NCBI GenBank assembly: GCA_044892505.1 | Contig: CM097883.1 | Span: forward strand, 408,456,001-408,520,000 | Length of the DNA: 64,000 nucleotides | Direction: 5' to 3' | DNA from: Schmidtea nova | Lineage: Eukaryota | Shown here: piece by piece, positions 3,768 to 23,220 of the stretch | How the letters are laid out: every line of letters starts with the position of its first letter | How positions within the stretch are numbered: the first letter of the stretch is position 1 | Program-made: the position numbers and the translations under genes | The notes under the pieces: model-generated | What the model was told of the DNA's origin: nothing | Database searches by the model: none | The model's input: only the letters and a program-made list of their open reading frames with translations

Positions 3768-4090
3768 CTCTCTATATTGTGCAAAAACACCTAAAAAGCC
3801 ATATTAGGGCTATTACTTTCGACAGATGGATTACACCAAGGGCGACTACAGTTGAGACCCAGGCGGATATCCTATCGACAGAGCATTCGGTAGAATCAGG
3901 AATAGTGGATGCGGTACAGCCAACATATCCCGCTCAACCAAAACCAAAAAAGAGAAATCGCTTAGGAGCGAAGAGGCGTTGGGAACGAAGGGCGTTTGCC
4001 GAAAAGATGAATATACAGGTTGACCTGTTAAGTGGCCTGTCGGAGAGACAATTGATAAACTTAATCGATACGTCCGTTTATATTAAATAA
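3768..4090 (+). pseudogene. 5'-truncated copy of unassigned cassette ORF2 (coiled-coil/basic protein)
   Basis: HIRAITFDRWI and KKRNRLGAKRRWERRAFAEKMNIQVDLLSGLSERQLINLI align with LIRTSTFDRWV...RNRLSAKRR...IEVELLSGLTEKQLLAVI (17.5-17.8 kb) and KRKRISQKRRRQKKLFAQRLQTQVDRLSSLTELDLLAEI (22.3-22.5 kb). Confidence 0.7.
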
Positions 4091-4210
4091 TTGTATTTAT
4101 ATTTTGTACATGACAATTAATTTGTGAGTGAATGATGGGTATGACAAAGCTGTATGATGAAGAATAGTTTGATGAGAGTTTAAAACGAAGGGACATAGAA
4201 TAAATCACTG

Positions 4211-4390
4211 AGACCTTCTATCGGCCAGAAAGAACCCTCAGGGGCAAGAGGGGAATAGTCACTGCGGAGTAGCTTACCTGCCCTCTTGACCTACACTGGT
4301 TAGTACATTTCCAACGTGATGTGCAATTAGGTGCAAATCACGGGTACTATCGCAGGGTTATAACTTTTTATGTTGGTGGAGTTACCCTAA
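4211..4390 (+). ncRNA. Conserved two-domain structured RNA motif, copy 1 (unassigned)
   Basis: CAAGAGGG-GAATA-GTCACT-GCGG-AGTAGC-TTACCTG-CCCTCTTG (4245-4288), then CCAAC-hairpin-GGG...TGTTGG...CCCTAA (4311-4390). Stems covary with three other copies. Confidence 0.6.
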
Positions 4391-5213
4391 TAATAACATC
4401 ATTTTTAAAAACTCCATGTTAAACACCACTAACAAACCAACAACTATAACGACTCCCACCCGTAAGTCACATGACAATAAAATCATTGGTTTCCGGAGTA
4501 GTTATGTGGGAGGTGAGCATGTGAATTTTCCCAGGAAACGAAATGACGACAAAAAATCTAGTATCCATTATCTCATATCCGTCAATGTCAGAAGAGAGAG
4601 AAATTTAGCTAAAATAACAGACAGCAGGAAACGCAGTTAGTTAAGTAAATAATCAGGCTACTAGGATTAATCTAAATTTTCGTTGAATTCATTTCCTGTA
4701 GATGTTCCATTAAGCAGATAAAATTTAAATCAAAGTGCGAAACTTGCCCCTGTTGGTCTCTGGTGTGGACATGGATATTTAAATGACGACCTAGGGGGTG
4801 GATGTGACCCATACAGCGAATTTGATAATTTCAAAGATTTTCAAATAAATTATAAACATAATTCGATTGTAATGTTCGTTGATTGACAAAACAAGGAAAG
4901 TAGCTTTATTATTTGTAGTGCTTAAAGCAGTTCTTTTGATTTGAATTTTTGAACATTTATGACAATACGAATTTCAACCTGAAAACTTTTTATCTTATAA
5001 AAGTTTTTTATTCTTGTCTTAAAAAATTAAATTGAAACCAAAAAATAATTTTTGTAACAAAATATGTTGCAATAAGAAATTTTCATATTAAGGTTCTTAT
5101 TATAATATTACTGAAAGATTAAAGCAATTGTAAAATTTTACTTATTTTCAAATTCTAAGCATTGTTAGATTATCTCAGACAATTAGAAATATTTTTTGCA
5201 ATATAAAAACATT

Positions 5214-15916: not shown

Positions 15917-16486
15917 ACGAATTCGAATTTCGAATAAAAATGGATTTGATATCATTTTTCTTGATTTTTTAGCAGATTTCCATTTTAATGTTTAATATAG
16001 ATTGGCATCATTTGTCTTTTTTAATGGAAATATTTTTGTATTAAATGGTAAATAGTCAAGTAAAAATATTTGGAACCGGCCAATTTGGATATAGATGATT
16101 TGGATAATAAATATTAAATAGAAACAACTTGCACGAGAAAGTTTTTCTTGAAAAATGTTTTTTTTGAAATAATGTTTTTAATTGATGAAAATATTTGTGT
16201 ACGGCATTTTTGAATGCTGATTCCAAAAAAGAGGTTAAATTGTCCCTCACGTCCGGTTTTTTTTATATAAAACGATATCGAAAATGAGTAAAAAGGTTAT
16301 TTTGAAGTAAAATCAGCCTAATGTAAACAGACAGTCAAAGATAATTGAATTACACAAAACTGTAAATGTTACTACTGCTAATATTCGTGAGTATAATCAA
16401 AAGTCACATTAAAGAGTTTCTAGATAGAAGTGTTGGTTGTGCGTTGAGAAAATTCAAATTAATATTGTTATTAATCAACGGTCACG

Positions 16487-16613
16487 CAACAACACATAAA
16501 TGTTCCCTGTGCGTATAACCGTATATACTTTACTGTATACACGTTGGTACTGTATAAGACAGTCTAATGCAAGTCGGCAGGTGAGCGCCTTTGTTAGAGC
16601 TACTCCCGGCTTG
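16487..16613 (-). ncRNA. Conserved structured RNA motif, copy 2
   Basis: Minus strand CAAGCCGG-GAGTA-GCTCTAACAAAGGCGC-TCACCTG-CCGACTTG (16613-16570), then CCAAC-GTGTATAC-AGTAAA-GTATATAC. Confidence 0.5.
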
Positions 16614-17170
16614 TCATTCTGGAAGGTTTCATGCCGCAGATAAAATTTCTTACGCGTCTAAATATTTTTTATTTCCAAAGGTCCTTTAAATTTATCAATA
16701 CCTAACTTTTAATATCAATACTCATCTTATTTAAAATATTGCACCTATTTATCCTAAGAATCTTTATCGTTTTCTCCCTACCTCAACTGACTTATAAAAT
16801 GTGGTTCGTAATCCTACTATTAATGCTTCTATATCGTATATACTTTCATGCTATTTTCCTGTTTAATGCTCTTATGTGTTATTGTGCGCTTTAAATTGTC
16901 CTCTTTTTGTATTTATTTAAATTTTGACGTATTTAAGCAAAAATCGAGCCTCACTTTTTCCAGCCCAACAGAAGAATTATTATTTTGCAACAAACAAAAA
17001 TTACCCATTAATACTTGGATATGCCCGGCCTTCTGTAAAGATTCTCAAGAGACTATGGTCTGGTTTTATTTCATGTCATGTCTCTCAAAGTTCATTTCGT
17101 CAAGAATTATCTTTACTTTTGCTTGTTTGTTGGTTAGAATTTCAATGGAGGTTATACTTGATTTTATAGG

Positions 17171-17344
17171 TTAGGGTAACCTCGCCAACATAAAAACGCT
17201 TCCCCGCTGACACCCATGATGTATCCCTAACTACTCATCATGTTGGAACTGTGTCAACGTTGTGAAATGACAAGGCAGGTGAGCAACCTTGCGGCTACTA
17301 TTCCCTTGTTTATTCACGAGTCCACTACTACCGTTAGAAGGTCT
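17171..17344 (-). ncRNA. Conserved structured RNA motif, copy 3
   Basis: Minus strand AGACCTTCTA, CAAGG-GAATA-GTAGCC-GCAA-GGTTGC-TCACCTG-CCTTG, CCAAC-ATGATG...TTAGGG...CATCAT-GGG...TGTTGG...CCCTAA. Confidence 0.62.
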
Positions 17345-17539
17345 GTGTGGTTTTCTTCCGGTCCCTAACATTAATTTAAGTTCATTAGGTCTAGGGTGCA
17401 TTTACTTGCTTTATATCCTTTGGCCGAAAATGAATTGGTTTTTTTCAATCATTCCATTTACTTAAATTCACATTCATTTCTCATACATTCGTAATACTAC
17501 AATTGAACTATGATACTTTTATTTCAATTTATCAATACT

Positions 17540-18077
17540 GCGGGGTTAATAACAGCCAGTAATTGTTTTTCGGTAAGACCGCTCAGGAGCTCTACTTCGA
17601 TCTAGATTCGTTCTGCATATTCCCTTCTTGCCTTCTTTTAGCGCTTAACCGATTCCGTCCTTTAGTCCGTTTAGACCCTTAGGTTTTCGGAGTACTTTCT
17701 GGGGGTTCTGGATTCGAGTTCAAAATCATCTCCGTCTGTACGCCCATCGAGACGCTGCTTGATTTTACCCATCGATCAAAGGTGCTGGTTCGTATGAGTG
17801 GCCGTAATTGCTGTTCAATGAACTCCTTAGTAGAAGCCCGCAGATAATTACTTAATTCCAACTTTACAGCGGCCGTCTTTCGCGCTTGCTCTTCCGCTAT
17901 TCTTTCGGCACGATATCTAGCCTGTTGTATGACCTTTACTCGTTCCGGGTGGAACCAAGTCGATTTTATTAATTGATGTTCGGCATCCAACTGCCGAAAT
18001 CGACCTTCAAGAGCCTTGACTCTTTTCTTAGCTTCCTTAGCCTCTGCTCTTTAGTCGTGGGTCTTGGCGGCACACAT
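17540..18077 (-). pseudogene. Cassette ORF2 (coiled-coil plus basic C-terminus), with stops and frameshifts
   Basis: TTTCAG acceptor immediately before 18077. WF...R.K...RA.R.AE...K.EL..YL...IE..LR..IR...WV pattern shared with 21883-22476. Confidence 0.7.
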
Positions 18078-18333
18078 CTGAAACGAGAAAATGAGTAGAT
18101 TAGTATGTTCTCTGCAACCACATTTTTCACGCATCTCGCTCATTCTCATAGTTTACATATCGTCGTCATTTACAATTGTGCACAGTTAAGTCACGCCCCG
18201 AGGTCATTAATCTCTTTAACGACATCACCCCCTTTCTTTATCTCATACATTCCAATCAACTACAAAATTCACAAAATCATTTATTTATTATTCATGAACA
18301 GTAATCAGTCTATCCCAATGATGCGATGAATTT

Positions 18334-19055
18334 TCACAGATATTCGACCAGTTCTTGGTCATAGGCTCGATCCATTAGTCCTCTGCCATTGGTTTGATAG
18401 ATTTTTGTGCAGGGCTCCCAGCAAAGTCCATCTTGGAAGATGAATACTTCCCATAGTCGAGTTTCTTCCTCCCACTGCTGCGGATTCATATTCCTGTTTC
18501 CTGGGGCATTGAGATACGGATGGAGTGTACCCGTGTAGATACATATTGGCTCATTCAACAGGATATAGTCTAGCTGGCGGAATTCGGGCCCTGACATGGA
18601 GTTGAATGACAATACCCATCGGGGTTTGGCCTGGTGGTCCTCGAATTGGATGAACCATTTCGGCTGCCTCGGCACTTGAATGCTTAGCGATGTCGGCCAC
18701 TATGGGTCACCTTCCCACCGATTTCGGGTTTTGAAGAATGATGTTACCGGTTGCACGTCTGGATCTATATGGCTACGGTTCCACTCCCTGAGGTGGCGTT
18801 CTGCCACTTTTCTGATGGCTTCAGGAATTGTATTTGCATCTACGAATGTTAGTTTGCGCGACTGAGCTCGCAAGGGTCGTGACTTTCTTTTTTCTGGCAT
18901 CTGAATGATGGTGGCTATTAGTTTTCATCTAGTTTACGTCATCACCTCCACATTCATCCACTCTACTCATCATTCCTCATATTAGGTCATTCATTCATAC
19001 ACCATCAATAAAAAGTTTTACTTACCAGTACTTCGATTTTCAGTTGATTGTACAT
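18334..19055 (-). pseudogene. Cassette ORF1: short exon 19055-19026, intron, then 18900-18334 with one in-frame TAG
   Basis: The listed ORFs 18700-18900 and 18334-18675 share a frame. Donor GTAAGT at 19025, acceptor CATTCAG directly before ATG at 18900. Confidence 0.55.
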
Positions 19056-20445: not shown

Positions 20446-21239
20446 TCCTGTTTGATGTTGCATCATTTACGTATAGCCGGGGCTGAGGATAATTGATTAA
20501 ATAAAATAGCGTTTCATGGACACATGGTTTTCTAGTTTTAATCTCGCAAAGGGTTGTTTTCCTACCACTCAAGAACGGCAGCGCATGGGATATGTAGTAA
20601 CTCTCAGACAATATATTAGGACGAGGGGGAAATGGGGAAAATAAATGGATTCCGAACATAATGACTAATAGAATTTACCCTGCAGAGGTAGACACAGATT
20701 TTCTCAAGTTTATCGCGCACCACTTTAAATCCACACGACATTTACATGACCAAAATCGACTGATCGGAAGCAGCCGAATAAATTTTCATACTGTAAATAG
20801 AACTAATCGATATTTTTCATCAAAAATAAACAAATCAAGTGAGGGTAACTTAAATGTCCAAACAATAATTCAGACACATGCATCAAAAACTTCATAGTAA
20901 TGAATGTCAAGTCCTGAACTCGGATACAAACAGTCGATTTGATTATACACAATTAACGCTAATAATCCTGATCGCTTTAGATAGCGCAGGAGTTTAACGA
21001 GAATTTTTATGATATTTATCCGGATCGCTGTATATAGCGCAGGGAATATATGAAAATAAATTAGAAATTATTCCGATTGTGGTATATCGCAAAGGTGTTG
21101 ATTGAACCAGTAGATTTTTTGTTCTTTTTCCAAATATTTGATTTCTCGCTATAATTTCATGGAGTTTTCTATAAAATAACTCAAAATCTTGATTAATCAA
21201 CCAGTTAATTCGTTAATCCTATTATGGTAATAATGCAGA

Positions 21240-21589
21240 TGGAACCAAATGATGTAGAGAAATTCCTAACTACTCATAGAGAGTCGTCCAAATCCGTCAA
21301 GGCCGGACCCTCTAGGATACTTCGAATGGGGCTAAAAACCTTACCATCATCAATACTGCGGACCGTAAATGCACAAATGTTTAAATGGCGGAGGGAATTT
21401 GGAAAGAAATGCTCGTTCTCCATTTGGAACACCGGCAAGGATCTCGTGTTGTATCGGGGAGGCCCGGGGTGGCCGATTTCCAACCAGAACTACTCATCAA
21501 AGTTTGGACGACTGATAATTACAATAAATGACCGAATCGAGAACCAGCTAAAACTGTTTATTGGGGACATATTCCGCAAAGTGAAATAG
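21240..21589 (+). pseudogene. Cassette ORF1, second copy
   Basis: AATGCAG acceptor directly before ATG GAA CCA. Weak colinear similarity to the 18.9-kb ORF1 (TLPSSI..W.R vs TIPEAI..W.R; GGPGWP vs GDP*WP). Confidence 0.45.
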
Positions 21590-21882
21590 CAGAATTGGGC
21601 CTGCAATTATTGACATCGCCTCGGCCCCTTGGAGATGAATACGAACAGAGCCAACCGAAGTTTTCCCTGAGCAATTTACGTCAATCACCAATAAATCAAG
21701 GGCTTCATGTTGCCTATGTTTTTAGAACAAATTTTCCATTTCATAAATCCGTGTGTATTAGTACAAAATAAATAATTGCGTTTAACTTTCTTATTTTGTT
21801 TCTTGTATTAAGCAGTTATATGCATAGGATCAACTATTCTGAACTAAAATGATAAAATAATCATTTACTTAACTATTTCAGT

Positions 21883-22476
21883 ATGAACTCAGAAACTCAT
21901 CAACAGAAGGAGATCGAGAAGTTATGGTGAATCAAACGGGCTCAAGAGAAAGAGCTGGTTCAAGTAAAAGCCCAGTTATCCAAAGCTGAGGCGCAAATAA
22001 CCTATCTACGAAAAAGTTGGTTTGCTACTGCCAGGATGAAGGATCGAATTTCCTGAACAGAAAGGGCACAACGAACTGCAGAGGACTACAAGTTGGAGTG
22101 GAAGGCCACAAAGATCGAGTTGAGAAAATACCTCCACTCGGTAACGACTTTTTACATTGAAAAGGAGTTGAGGTCGCAAATCTGACCCGTCACTTATCAA
22201 AGTTGGGTGATGGAGCAAAGAACCATGTGCTCGATTGGTACGGATGTCGAAGGACTATCAGATGGGAAAATAGACAACGCCCAGCAGGCTACGAAGGACG
22301 TTCCCACGAGCAACACGCATCTGAAGCGAAAACGGATCAGTCAAAAGCGCCGACGTCAAAAGAAACTTTTCGCCCAGCGGCTCCAGACCCAAGTAGATCG
22401 TTTGTCGAGCCTAACGGAACTCGATTTACTAGCCGAAATCTTTCCACCAGAAGGAACTTTCACCGAATTGTTATAG
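21883..22476 (+). pseudogene. Cassette ORF2, 197 codons with three in-frame TGA and no frameshift
   Basis: TTTCAG acceptor at 21876-21881. TGA at 21928, 22054 and 22183. Aligns along its length with 18077-17540. Confidence 0.72.
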
Positions 22477-22649
22477 TTAATAAAACTTTATACGAAGTGT
22501 GCCGAGATCTTTGTTGTTATTTGGGAATCCTCTCTAATTATAATGCAATTAAACAAAACGTAACTAATTGTAACAATCACATTTTTGGTAAAGCTAAATA
22601 ATAAATAATAAACACATACGAAATACATTAATGAATTAGTAAATAAAGC

Positions 22650-22837
22650 GTCAGACTTCCTAGCGGCAGCATGAACCCGTGAACATAAATGGGGAGTAGT
22701 TCTAGTAATAGAGCTCACCTGCCCATCATTGTTCAATCACCTTGCGCATCACCAACTTGGTTATATAGGGAAATAATCAAGGGCGCTCGAGTGAGAAAGA
22801 AACTACTTATGCATGATCATGGATGTGGTATCCCTAG
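22650..22837 (+). ncRNA. Conserved structured RNA motif, copy 4
   Basis: ATGGG-GAGTA-GTTCTA-GTAA-TAGAGC-TCACCTG-CCCAT (22689-22726); CCAAC-TTGGTT..TAGGG..AATCAA-GGG...TCCCTAG. Confidence 0.6.
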
Positions 22838-23220
22838 CCACTATTAGAAATTATGGTCTAACCCCTCCATGAACCCAGCATTTGTACGAAGTCTTAAAAT
22901 GAAAAGTTCTGTAATAGAAACGCAGTGATCAAAGGTGAAATAAAGAGATAAAAATGCTAATATTTTCTATATAAATTAAATTGAAACGCTTTTATAATTT
23001 TTGTAAATTGTTGTCACTTTCCCCGATCCCTAAAAAAAGACTTTTTTTAAATTGCAATTATTAAAAATAATTTCTTAAATAGTTTATTTCTTTTTTAAAC
23101 GAATTGTCGAAATATGCCTAAGAATAGCAAGAATTGCTAACTATATATCCGCATTAAAAAAAGATGAAAATACAAAATGTATAGAATGATAAATCGCAGA
23201 ATTAAAGAAAGGAAATAGCG

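What the first reader, a model, noticed from the sequence alone, without database searches (positions are those of the whole stretch)
4311..4390. Covarying RNA domain 2 with a probable TAGGG/CCCTA pseudoknot
About 20-25 nt after domain 1, every copy has CCAAC followed by a hairpin whose stem differs but still pairs (GTGAT/ATCAC, ATGATG/CATCAT, GTGTATAC/GTATATAC, TTGGTT/AATCAA), then GG(G). In three copies the hairpin loop contains TAGG(G), complementary to a downstream CCCTA, and CCAAC can pair with downstream (T)GTTGG. This topology suggests a compact pseudoknotted 3'-UTR element, for example a nuclease-blocking, packaging or replication signal; function is inference.
Basis: partly seen in the sequence, partly recalled or inferred. 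Interest (0 to 1): 0.72.

Follow-up and report, generated by a model that had tools for sequence, protein, structure and literature searches.

The report
Conserved RNA stem beside retrotransposon primer
Thousands of end repeats of a giant, retrovirus-like jumping gene keep the same two-helix stem with a fixed bulge just before the site where its tRNA primer is predicted to bind, so it likely helps start copying the element's RNA; the proposed pseudoknot is only partly supported.

Summary
Real, but not the isolated 3'-UTR knot proposed. The four window copies are 3' ends of LTRs of Burro-like giant Ty3/gypsy elements; in intact elements the domain lies about 130-180 nt before a tRNA-Pro primer-binding site (PBS). 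Both helices covary: 86% of cells pair against 68% shuffled, and the top 6 of 1454 column pairs are predicted pairs. CCAAC/GTTGG is not supported: that strand pairs better with the LTR terminus plus spacer, forming a hairpin that abuts the PBS (21 of 22 and 14 of 14 ends). Loop/CCCTA looks like an accessory kissing contact: compensated in one clade, lost on both sides in the commonest family. Two conserved motifs also match the primer's D and T arms (6 of 500 shuffles), but an out-of-sample family gave only weak support. Best reading (0.5): a U5/leader platform for primer placement and reverse-transcription initiation; packaging is the main rival. No RNA data fix the transcript ends. No Rfam or literature match was found. 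The scan had noted Burro LTRs in this genome before, but my look-ups showed no note on this structure.

The parts
4205..4442 (+). Conserved 3' block of an old LTR copy (likely R-U5); LTR ends ...CA at 4442, no PBS follows
   Evidence: homologous block ends at the TG..CA LTR end in paired elements
4232..4237 (+). GAACCC motif complementary to the 5' strand of the tRNA T arm (PAS-like; inferred)
   Evidence: 5 of 500 shuffles; out of sample 142 of 2000 and tRNA-Lys pairs as well
4245..4288 (+). Domain 1: long stem, small internal loop, terminal hairpin (context, not this finding)
   Evidence: covarying pairs 4248-4285, 4249-4284, 4250-4283 rank 1, 10, 13 of 12619
4301..4349 (+). Domain 2 core: outer helix P1 4301-4306/4344-4349; internal loop 4307-4314 opposite G4343; hairpin P2 4315-4320/4337-4342
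4326..4331 (+). Apical loop ATTAGG, predicted kissing partner of the box (6 bp in this copy)
4367..4383 (+). 5' arm of the terminal hairpin (TTTATG-TTGG-TGGAGTT); pairs with the LTR terminus and, in 5' LTRs, the spacer before the PBS
4385..4391 (+). CCCTAAT box in the terminal hairpin's loop; complementary to the domain-2 loop and, less well in this family, to the tRNA-Pro D arm
4410..4442 (+). 3' arm of the terminal hairpin and LTR end (AACTCCA 4410-4416; CCAAC 4437-4441; CA)
17120..17365 (-). Second LTR-end copy (domain 2 about 17262-17195); 88% identical to the end of a young LTR
22648..22880 (+). Third LTR-end copy (domain 2 about 22736-22800); 82% identical to the end of a young LTR
16431..16655 (-). 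Fourth, decayed LTR-end copy; loop and box both eroded

Best explanation
Domain 2 is a covarying two-helix stem with a fixed CCAA-bearing internal loop at the 3' end of Burro-like retroelement LTRs, and it likely works in the 5' leader (likely U5) of the element's RNA as part of a folded platform that would position the tRNA-Pro primer and control the start of reverse transcription. Shown: LTR location, distance to the PBS, both helices, and a terminal hairpin closed by the spacer just before the PBS. Partly shown: a loop-to-box kissing contact that would dock domain 2 on the terminal hairpin in most but not all families. Inferred: that the transcript starts just upstream of domain 1; that the tRNA T arm pairs with GAACCC and its D arm with the box, displacing the kissing loop on annealing; that the invariant CCAA loop binds Gag/RT or pairs with the TTGG at the start of the PBS.
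For: Motif pairs lie in 1.4-3.2 kb TG..CA direct repeats; the two elements scanned carry gag, env-like, PR-RT-RH-IN, ankyrin and TRAF domains. The PBS equals the last 18 nt of this genome's tRNA-Pro with CCA. 30 of 30 PBS-anchored loci have the block 170-218 nt upstream. Pairing 86.2% vs 68.3% (0/500 shuffles), best slid control 55.1%; top 6 of 1454 column pairs are proposed pairs; G-U 118 vs A-C 51 favours sense-strand RNA. The terminal hairpin uses the spacer that only follows a 5' LTR, and the spacer changes together with its partner between families. A young, very common family, whose one scanned copy runs from protease to ankyrin without RT/IN, keeps the whole core, as a cis element needed for mobilisation would. 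Of 7 conserved motifs, 2 pair with tRNA-Pro nt 1-57 better than shuffles (5/500, 3/500; two-best statistic 6/500), at the T and D arms; the D-arm match is weaker with tRNA-Lys and -Arg (-11.5 vs -8.1, -5.7 kcal/mol). These arms are the ones used by HIV, Ty1 and Ty3 (passages of PMC11251516, PMC5371799, PMC4974528).
Against: No RNA reads: start, poly(A) site and expression are unknown, so U5 versus R is inferred. I saw both tRNA matches by eye before testing. Out of sample (family X) the box no longer matches the D arm well (112/1000, best duplex at the tRNA 5' end); the T-arm match for the common variant is 142/2000 and tRNA-Lys does as well (-15.8 vs -15.0). The best single-motif z is reached by 43 of 500 shuffles. 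In Ty1 the analogous Box 2.1 pairing seen in vitro was not confirmed in particles (PMC3592414, passages). Nothing tested ties domain 2 itself to priming rather than packaging; its invariant loop cannot covary. Covariation counts sequences, about 17-19 effective, not independent events.
Confidence: 0.5

Rival explanations
1. Packaging/dimerisation signal: domain 2 and its neighbours are Gag-nucleocapsid binding sites, and the loop/box pairing acts between two genome copies.
For: 5' leader position; kept in a family whose scanned copy lacks RT/IN; invariant unpaired bases; CCHC gag present; Gag binds the Ty1 5' pseudoknot (PMC4974528, passages).
Against: The loop is not self-complementary in the copies tabulated; the commonest family lacks loop and box. 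It does not explain the hairpin closing next to the PBS. The two roles are not exclusive.
Confidence: 0.25
2. R-region control of transcription or 3'-end formation (TAR/poly(A)-hairpin-like), present at both RNA ends.
For: Conservation begins abruptly just upstream of domain 1 (upstream vs downstream identity 0.57 vs 0.88 and 0.60 vs 0.90 in two families); AATAAA-like words occur in domain 1 of some families.
Against: No AATAAA or TATA position is shared by all families; one family shows no drop (0.76 vs 0.79); the terminal hairpin needs the post-LTR spacer.
Confidence: 0.1
3. Leader element for translation or splice choice of the element's many spliced messages.
For: It would lie in the shared leader; other notes of this scan report spliced accessory genes (e1-9318386, unchecked here).
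Against: No test here; the antisense donor-like word in domain 1 is lost in family X.
Confidence: 0.07
4. One reading: compact double pseudoknot acting as a 3'-UTR nuclease block (xrRNA-like).
For: Loop/CCCTA complementarity of 6-7 bp in the clade of copies 4311 and 17246; there CCAAC/GTTGG is energetically close to the terminal pairing (8 F15 ends).
Against: GTTGG is not conserved while CCAAC is; the terminus wins in 21 of 22 and 14 of 14 ends; no three-way junction in domain 2; no Rfam xrRNA hit; absent from viral contigs.
Confidence: 0.05
5. Self-cleaving ribozyme (HDV- or pistol-like).
For: Invariant internal-loop bases; loop/box words recall pistol (from memory).
Against: No Rfam ribozyme hit; the nested P2 pairing HDV needs is not supported; no conserved bases after the box; box lost in family X.
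Confidence: 0.03

Closest known systems
Burro / GYPSM1 giant Ty3/gypsy elements of planarians (PMC6431247, passages)
   Same: About 25 kb between LTRs, gag-env-PR-RT-RH-IN order, ankyrin and TRAF/MATH cargo, thousands of copies.
   Different: The passages read say nothing on the PBS or LTR RNA structure; no sequence comparison with named Burro records was possible; Grohme 2018 was not held.
Retroviral U5-PBS segment with primer activation signal (HIV-1; predicted in HTLV-1) (PMC11181671, PMC11251516, passages)
   Same: 18-nt PBS; structured region upstream; a motif complementary to the 5' strand of the primer's T arm. tRNA-Pro primer as in MoMLV and HTLV-1.
   Different: The candidate PAS lies about 200-250 nt from the PBS (10 nt predicted in HTLV-1); spacer of 6 or 10 nt between LTR and PBS; an extra D-arm box; no sequence likeness.
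Ty1/Ty3 extended primer pairing and Ty1 5' pseudoknot (PMC5371799, PMC3592414, PMC4974528, passages)
   Same: Extra boxes for tRNA T and D arms; a 5' tertiary fold tied to initiation.
   Different: Ty1 boxes lie downstream in GAG and Ty3's in the 3' region, with a short PBS and tRNA-iMet; here candidates lie upstream inside the LTR beside a full PBS, and the contact is hairpin-loop to hairpin-loop.
Flaviviral xrRNA (recalled)
   Same: Compact size, loop-to-downstream pairing.
   Different: No three-way junction, host element is an LTR retroelement, no Rfam match.

Membership tests
Burro-like Ty3/gypsy LTR | Long direct repeats TG..CA flanking about 25 kb, with PBS | tested here: met
   (intact relatives; the window copies themselves have no PBS)
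Burro-like Ty3/gypsy LTR | gag-env-PR-RT-RH-IN order with ankyrin and MATH/TRAF cargo | tested here: met
   Pfam on 2 of the 4 fetched elements; compared with PMC6431247 passages
Burro-like Ty3/gypsy LTR | Sequence identity or RT tree with named Burro1-4 | not testable with these tools
   no eukaryote repeat library or relative genome held
Retroviral-type U5/PBS initiation segment | 18-nt PBS complementary to a host tRNA | tested here: met
Retroviral-type U5/PBS initiation segment | Lies in U5 of the transcript | not testable with these tools
   no RNA run listed; inferred
Retroviral-type U5/PBS initiation segment | PAS complementary to the primer's T arm | tested here: inconclusive
   5/500 in sample; 142/2000 out of sample, not Pro-specific
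Ty1/Ty3 bipartite PBS | Short PBS completed by a second segment elsewhere | tested here: not met
   PBS is a full contiguous 18-mer
Ty1/Ty3 bipartite PBS | Box pairing with the primer's D arm | tested here: inconclusive
   3/500 in 10 families, median 6-9 bp; 112/1000 in family X
Pseudoknot/kissing contact (loop-CCCTA) | Complementarity kept by compensatory change | tested here: inconclusive
   flank pair G-C 18, A-T 9, G-U 2, U-A 1 of 30 pattern-selected copies in one clade; core AGG/CCT invariant; position T:A broken in two families; absent in family X
Pseudoknot (CCAAC-GTTGG) | Partner conserved or covarying | tested here: not met
Flaviviral xrRNA | Three-way junction with two pseudoknots; Rfam model match | tested here: not met
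   (unbranched)
Flaviviral xrRNA | Xrn1 resistance | not testable with these tools
   bench assay
HDV-like / pistol ribozyme | Family topology and catalytic residues | tested here: not met
   no Rfam hit; consensus features compared from memory only

The most novel reading that the evidence does not exclude
Domain 2 is a built-in primer decoy. Its apical loop copies the tRNA-Pro D-loop word (UAGGG) and occupies the CCCUA box, while its invariant CCAA loop copies the tRNA's CCA end and covers the UUGG at the start of the PBS. The genome would stay locked until the real tRNA-Pro displaces both contacts: a tRNA-sensing switch between translation/packaging and reverse transcription in an enveloped invertebrate retroelement.
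Probability: 0.12. Interest if true: 0.82.

Novelty: new variant of a known kind. Interest (0 to 1): 0.52.

Why it matters
RNA structure of Ty3/gypsy leaders is poorly known (PMC4974528, 2016, passage: Ty3 RNA structure uncharacterised). Here about a dozen families at 45-77% identity give a covariation-backed model of three adjacent domains at the priming site of a giant, env-bearing, abundant element. That makes primer placement and packaging in Burro-like elements testable on a 300-nt RNA, and gives a sensitive marker for their LTRs and non-autonomous relatives. If the decoy switch holds, it would be a new way to time reverse transcription.

Tried and rejected
Rfam, E<=1 on window 1-30000 and E<=5 on six loci: no match over any LTR-end domain. 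Viral contigs: 0 matches to one exact pattern. Sequencing runs: no RNA holder listed; contigs of four unlabelled runs showed no intron joint or poly(A) among the rows displayed and say nothing on transcript ends. RNAalifold on A2 found only 5 pairs of the inner hairpin, not the outer helix. Single-copy folding is modest (z -1.5 to -2.8) and the decayed 16547 copy does not fold P1; the two other folds had misplaced coordinates and were ignored. Whole-region MFE folds reproduce all domains in some families only. Antisense splice donor in domain 1: rejected, lost in family X. Telomeric TTAGG repeat or telomerase template: not pursued, single words inside an LTR. Box pairing with a TAGGGG word before the 3' LTR: seen in 3 of 4 elements but absent from many listed; not tested further. 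I hoped family X used another tRNA, which would have been a natural covariation test; it uses the same PBS. Real-tRNA control covers only Lys and Arg. Literature searches without a description of this structure; subscription papers and Repbase were not searchable, Grohme 2018 and Beerens 2002 were not held, and no supplements were read, so Burro LTR/PBS annotation there may exist.

Full report
Observation. CCAAC, the quoted stems and GG(G) are in all four. TAGG(G) plus CCCTA is in three; GTTGG in two. The feature is a repeat: 4242 exact matches for domain 1 plus CCAAC against 0 for the reversed control, 8108 against 5 for a domain-2 pattern.

What carries it. Many matches come as same-strand pairs 11-13 or 22-27 kb apart. 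Four pairs were fetched; each lies in direct repeats of 1.4-3.2 kb, over 99.6% alike, that begin TG and end CA. Two of the four were scanned: gag zinc knuckles, a viral fusion glycoprotein, protease, RT, RNase H, integrase, ankyrin repeats and a TRAF/MATH gene. This fits the Burro elements of planarians as described in PMC6431247 (passages); no direct comparison with named Burro records was possible. Behind each 5' LTR stands a PBS equal to the last 18 nt, with CCA, of this genome's tRNA-Pro. All 30 PBS-anchored loci have domain 1 at 170-218 nt upstream. The window copies have no PBS and are old solo or 3' LTR ends.

Domain 2 core. From 142 distinct candidates, 111 remained at under 95% identity. 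I dropped 16 rows before aligning: 12 spurious or wrong-strand pattern hits, one doubtful variant, two true copies with deletions, and one true copy by mistake, whose wrong-strand twin stayed in. The structure-blind alignment A2 has 95 rows; searches left out the wrong-strand row. The model has an outer helix P1, an 8x1 internal loop and the hairpin P2. 86.2% of 1679 cells pair against 68.3% in shuffles (0/500) and at most 55.1% in slid controls; 16 of 18 pairs show change on both sides. The model came from these sequences, which favours it over slid controls. Independently of the model, the six highest of 1454 corrected mutual-information scores are proposed pairs, four in P1 and two in P2 (about 19 effective sequences). 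G-U cells outnumber A-C 118 to 51, pointing to sense-strand RNA. Against: RNAalifold alone returned only five P2 pairs and single-copy z-scores are -1.5 to -2.8. Loop bases A, C, C, A, A and the closing C-G pairs hold in 83-93 of 94 rows. Family X, found later and not in A2, keeps all 7 P1 pairs in 29 of 31 copies and all 6 P2 pairs in 26 of 31.

CCAAC-GTTGG. The strand holding GTTGG changes between families while CCAAC does not. In 22 distinct PBS-anchored ends it pairs with the LTR terminus and the spacer before the PBS, better than with the CCAAC segment in 21; in the eight F15 ends the two are close. Family X gives 14 of 14. Own-family pairing was best in 4 of 5 groups, two of them marginally. 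The spacer differs between family X and the rest and its partner differs with it. This terminal hairpin can close only behind a 5' LTR, which places the region's function at the RNA's 5' end.

Loop-CCCTA. The box sits in the loop of the terminal hairpin, so the contact would be loop to loop. Median loop-box duplex is 6-7 bp in the clade of copies 4311 and 17246 and 3-6 bp in seven other families. In that clade the flanking pair is G-C 18, A-U 9, G-U 2, U-A 1 in 30 pattern-selected copies. In another family a loop A-to-G change goes with a box U-to-C change, probably one event. In families 19 and 20 the U:A position is often broken, and family 18 mostly lacks AGG (register chosen as best of 15 windows, which inflates pairing). 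In family X the loop is three bases and 0 of 31 copies have CCCTA. Joint loss fits a real but dispensable contact.

Primer contacts. Seven conserved motifs from ten families (up to four copies each) were paired with tRNA-Pro nt 1-57. GAACCC (T arm) and the box (D arm) beat 495 and 497 of 500 shuffles; the two-best statistic 6/500, the best single z 43/500. I had seen both matches first. The box pairs better with Pro than with Lys or Arg tRNA; GAACCC only slightly. Out of sample, family X fails for the box (112/1000) and is weak for the T arm (142/2000 for the common variant, Lys equal; 12/1000 when a rare perfect variant is included). So these contacts are leads. They sit at the arms used by HIV PAS and by Ty1/Ty3 boxes (passages of PMC11251516, PMC11181671, PMC5371799, PMC4974528); the Ty1 Box 2.1 contact failed in particles (PMC3592414, passages).

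R or U5. No RNA run was listed and contigs do not show ends. Identity among family members drops upstream of domain 1 in seven of eight families (for example 0.88 to 0.57) but hardly in one (0.79 to 0.76), consistent with a U3/R border there. No poly(A) signal is shared. U5 is my inference.

Mechanism. Most likely (0.5) the leader folds into domain 1, domain 2 and the terminal hairpin beside the PBS; nucleocapsid anneals tRNA-Pro; extra contacts and release of the kissing loop set up initiation. Packaging or dimerisation (0.25) is not separable with these data. R-region control (0.10), translation or splicing (0.07), xrRNA (0.05) and ribozyme (0.03) follow.

Novelty. The element class is known. 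The structure has no Rfam match, no match in viral contigs, and seven literature searches found no description; key papers were not held, PMC3185550 and PMC8532177 were seen as passages without bearing on the structure, and no supplement was read. Earlier notes of this scan describe Burro LTRs in this genome but none shown to me describes this structure. It works like a retroviral U5-PBS segment; it is a new variant of that kind. Interest 0.52.

Noticed in passing
L044:737-757 (-), L048, L209: The spacer between the LTR's CA and the PBS is 6 nt and nearly invariant (94 of 99 listed places), and 10 nt in family X; longer than the 2 nt recalled for retroviruses, so cDNA-end processing may be unusual.
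   Followed up: partly
L041:8158-8200 (-): The stretch before the 3' LTR is not a plain purine tract: a conserved small hairpin word followed by a G-rich/C-rich palindrome; 3008 matches genome-wide.
   Followed up: partly
L198, L209-L248 (family X): A very common young family (74 of the first 100 rows, counted by hand) with LTRs over 4 kb, the same PBS and a trimmed domain 2; its one scanned copy runs from protease to ankyrin without RT/IN.
   Followed up: partly
window 4245-4288: Domain 1: covarying stem, U opposite CAC next to A-U/G-C pairs in all families including X, and a terminal hairpin often capped by a GNRA loop; function untested.
   Followed up: partly
window 4211-4225: Motif CCTTCTATCGG is kept in every family with no partner found.
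   Followed up: no
G000:C1:459.61-459.66 Mb (L081): tRNA-Pro genes in a 308-bp tandem array; 899 matches to the tRNA 3' pattern genome-wide, one copy with a changed anticodon.
   Followed up: no
window 17679-18924 (-), 21209-22476 (+), 3800-4090 (+): Decayed protein-like frames inside the LTR copies, with a splice-acceptor-like site at about 18077; no Pfam match for the three scanned.
   Followed up: partly
L045-L046: A 12-kb element with 1.43-kb LTRs shares domains 1-2 with a 25-kb family but has an unrelated upstream LTR part.
   Followed up: partly
L002, L003: Two 99-100% copies of the 4311 region lie 74-78 kb away in inverted orientation, likely a local duplication rather than a partner LTR.
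   Followed up: no
L158:1359-1545 (+), L247:1160-1440 (+): Further divergent LTR-end variants with the same layout; not included in the alignment.
   Followed up: no
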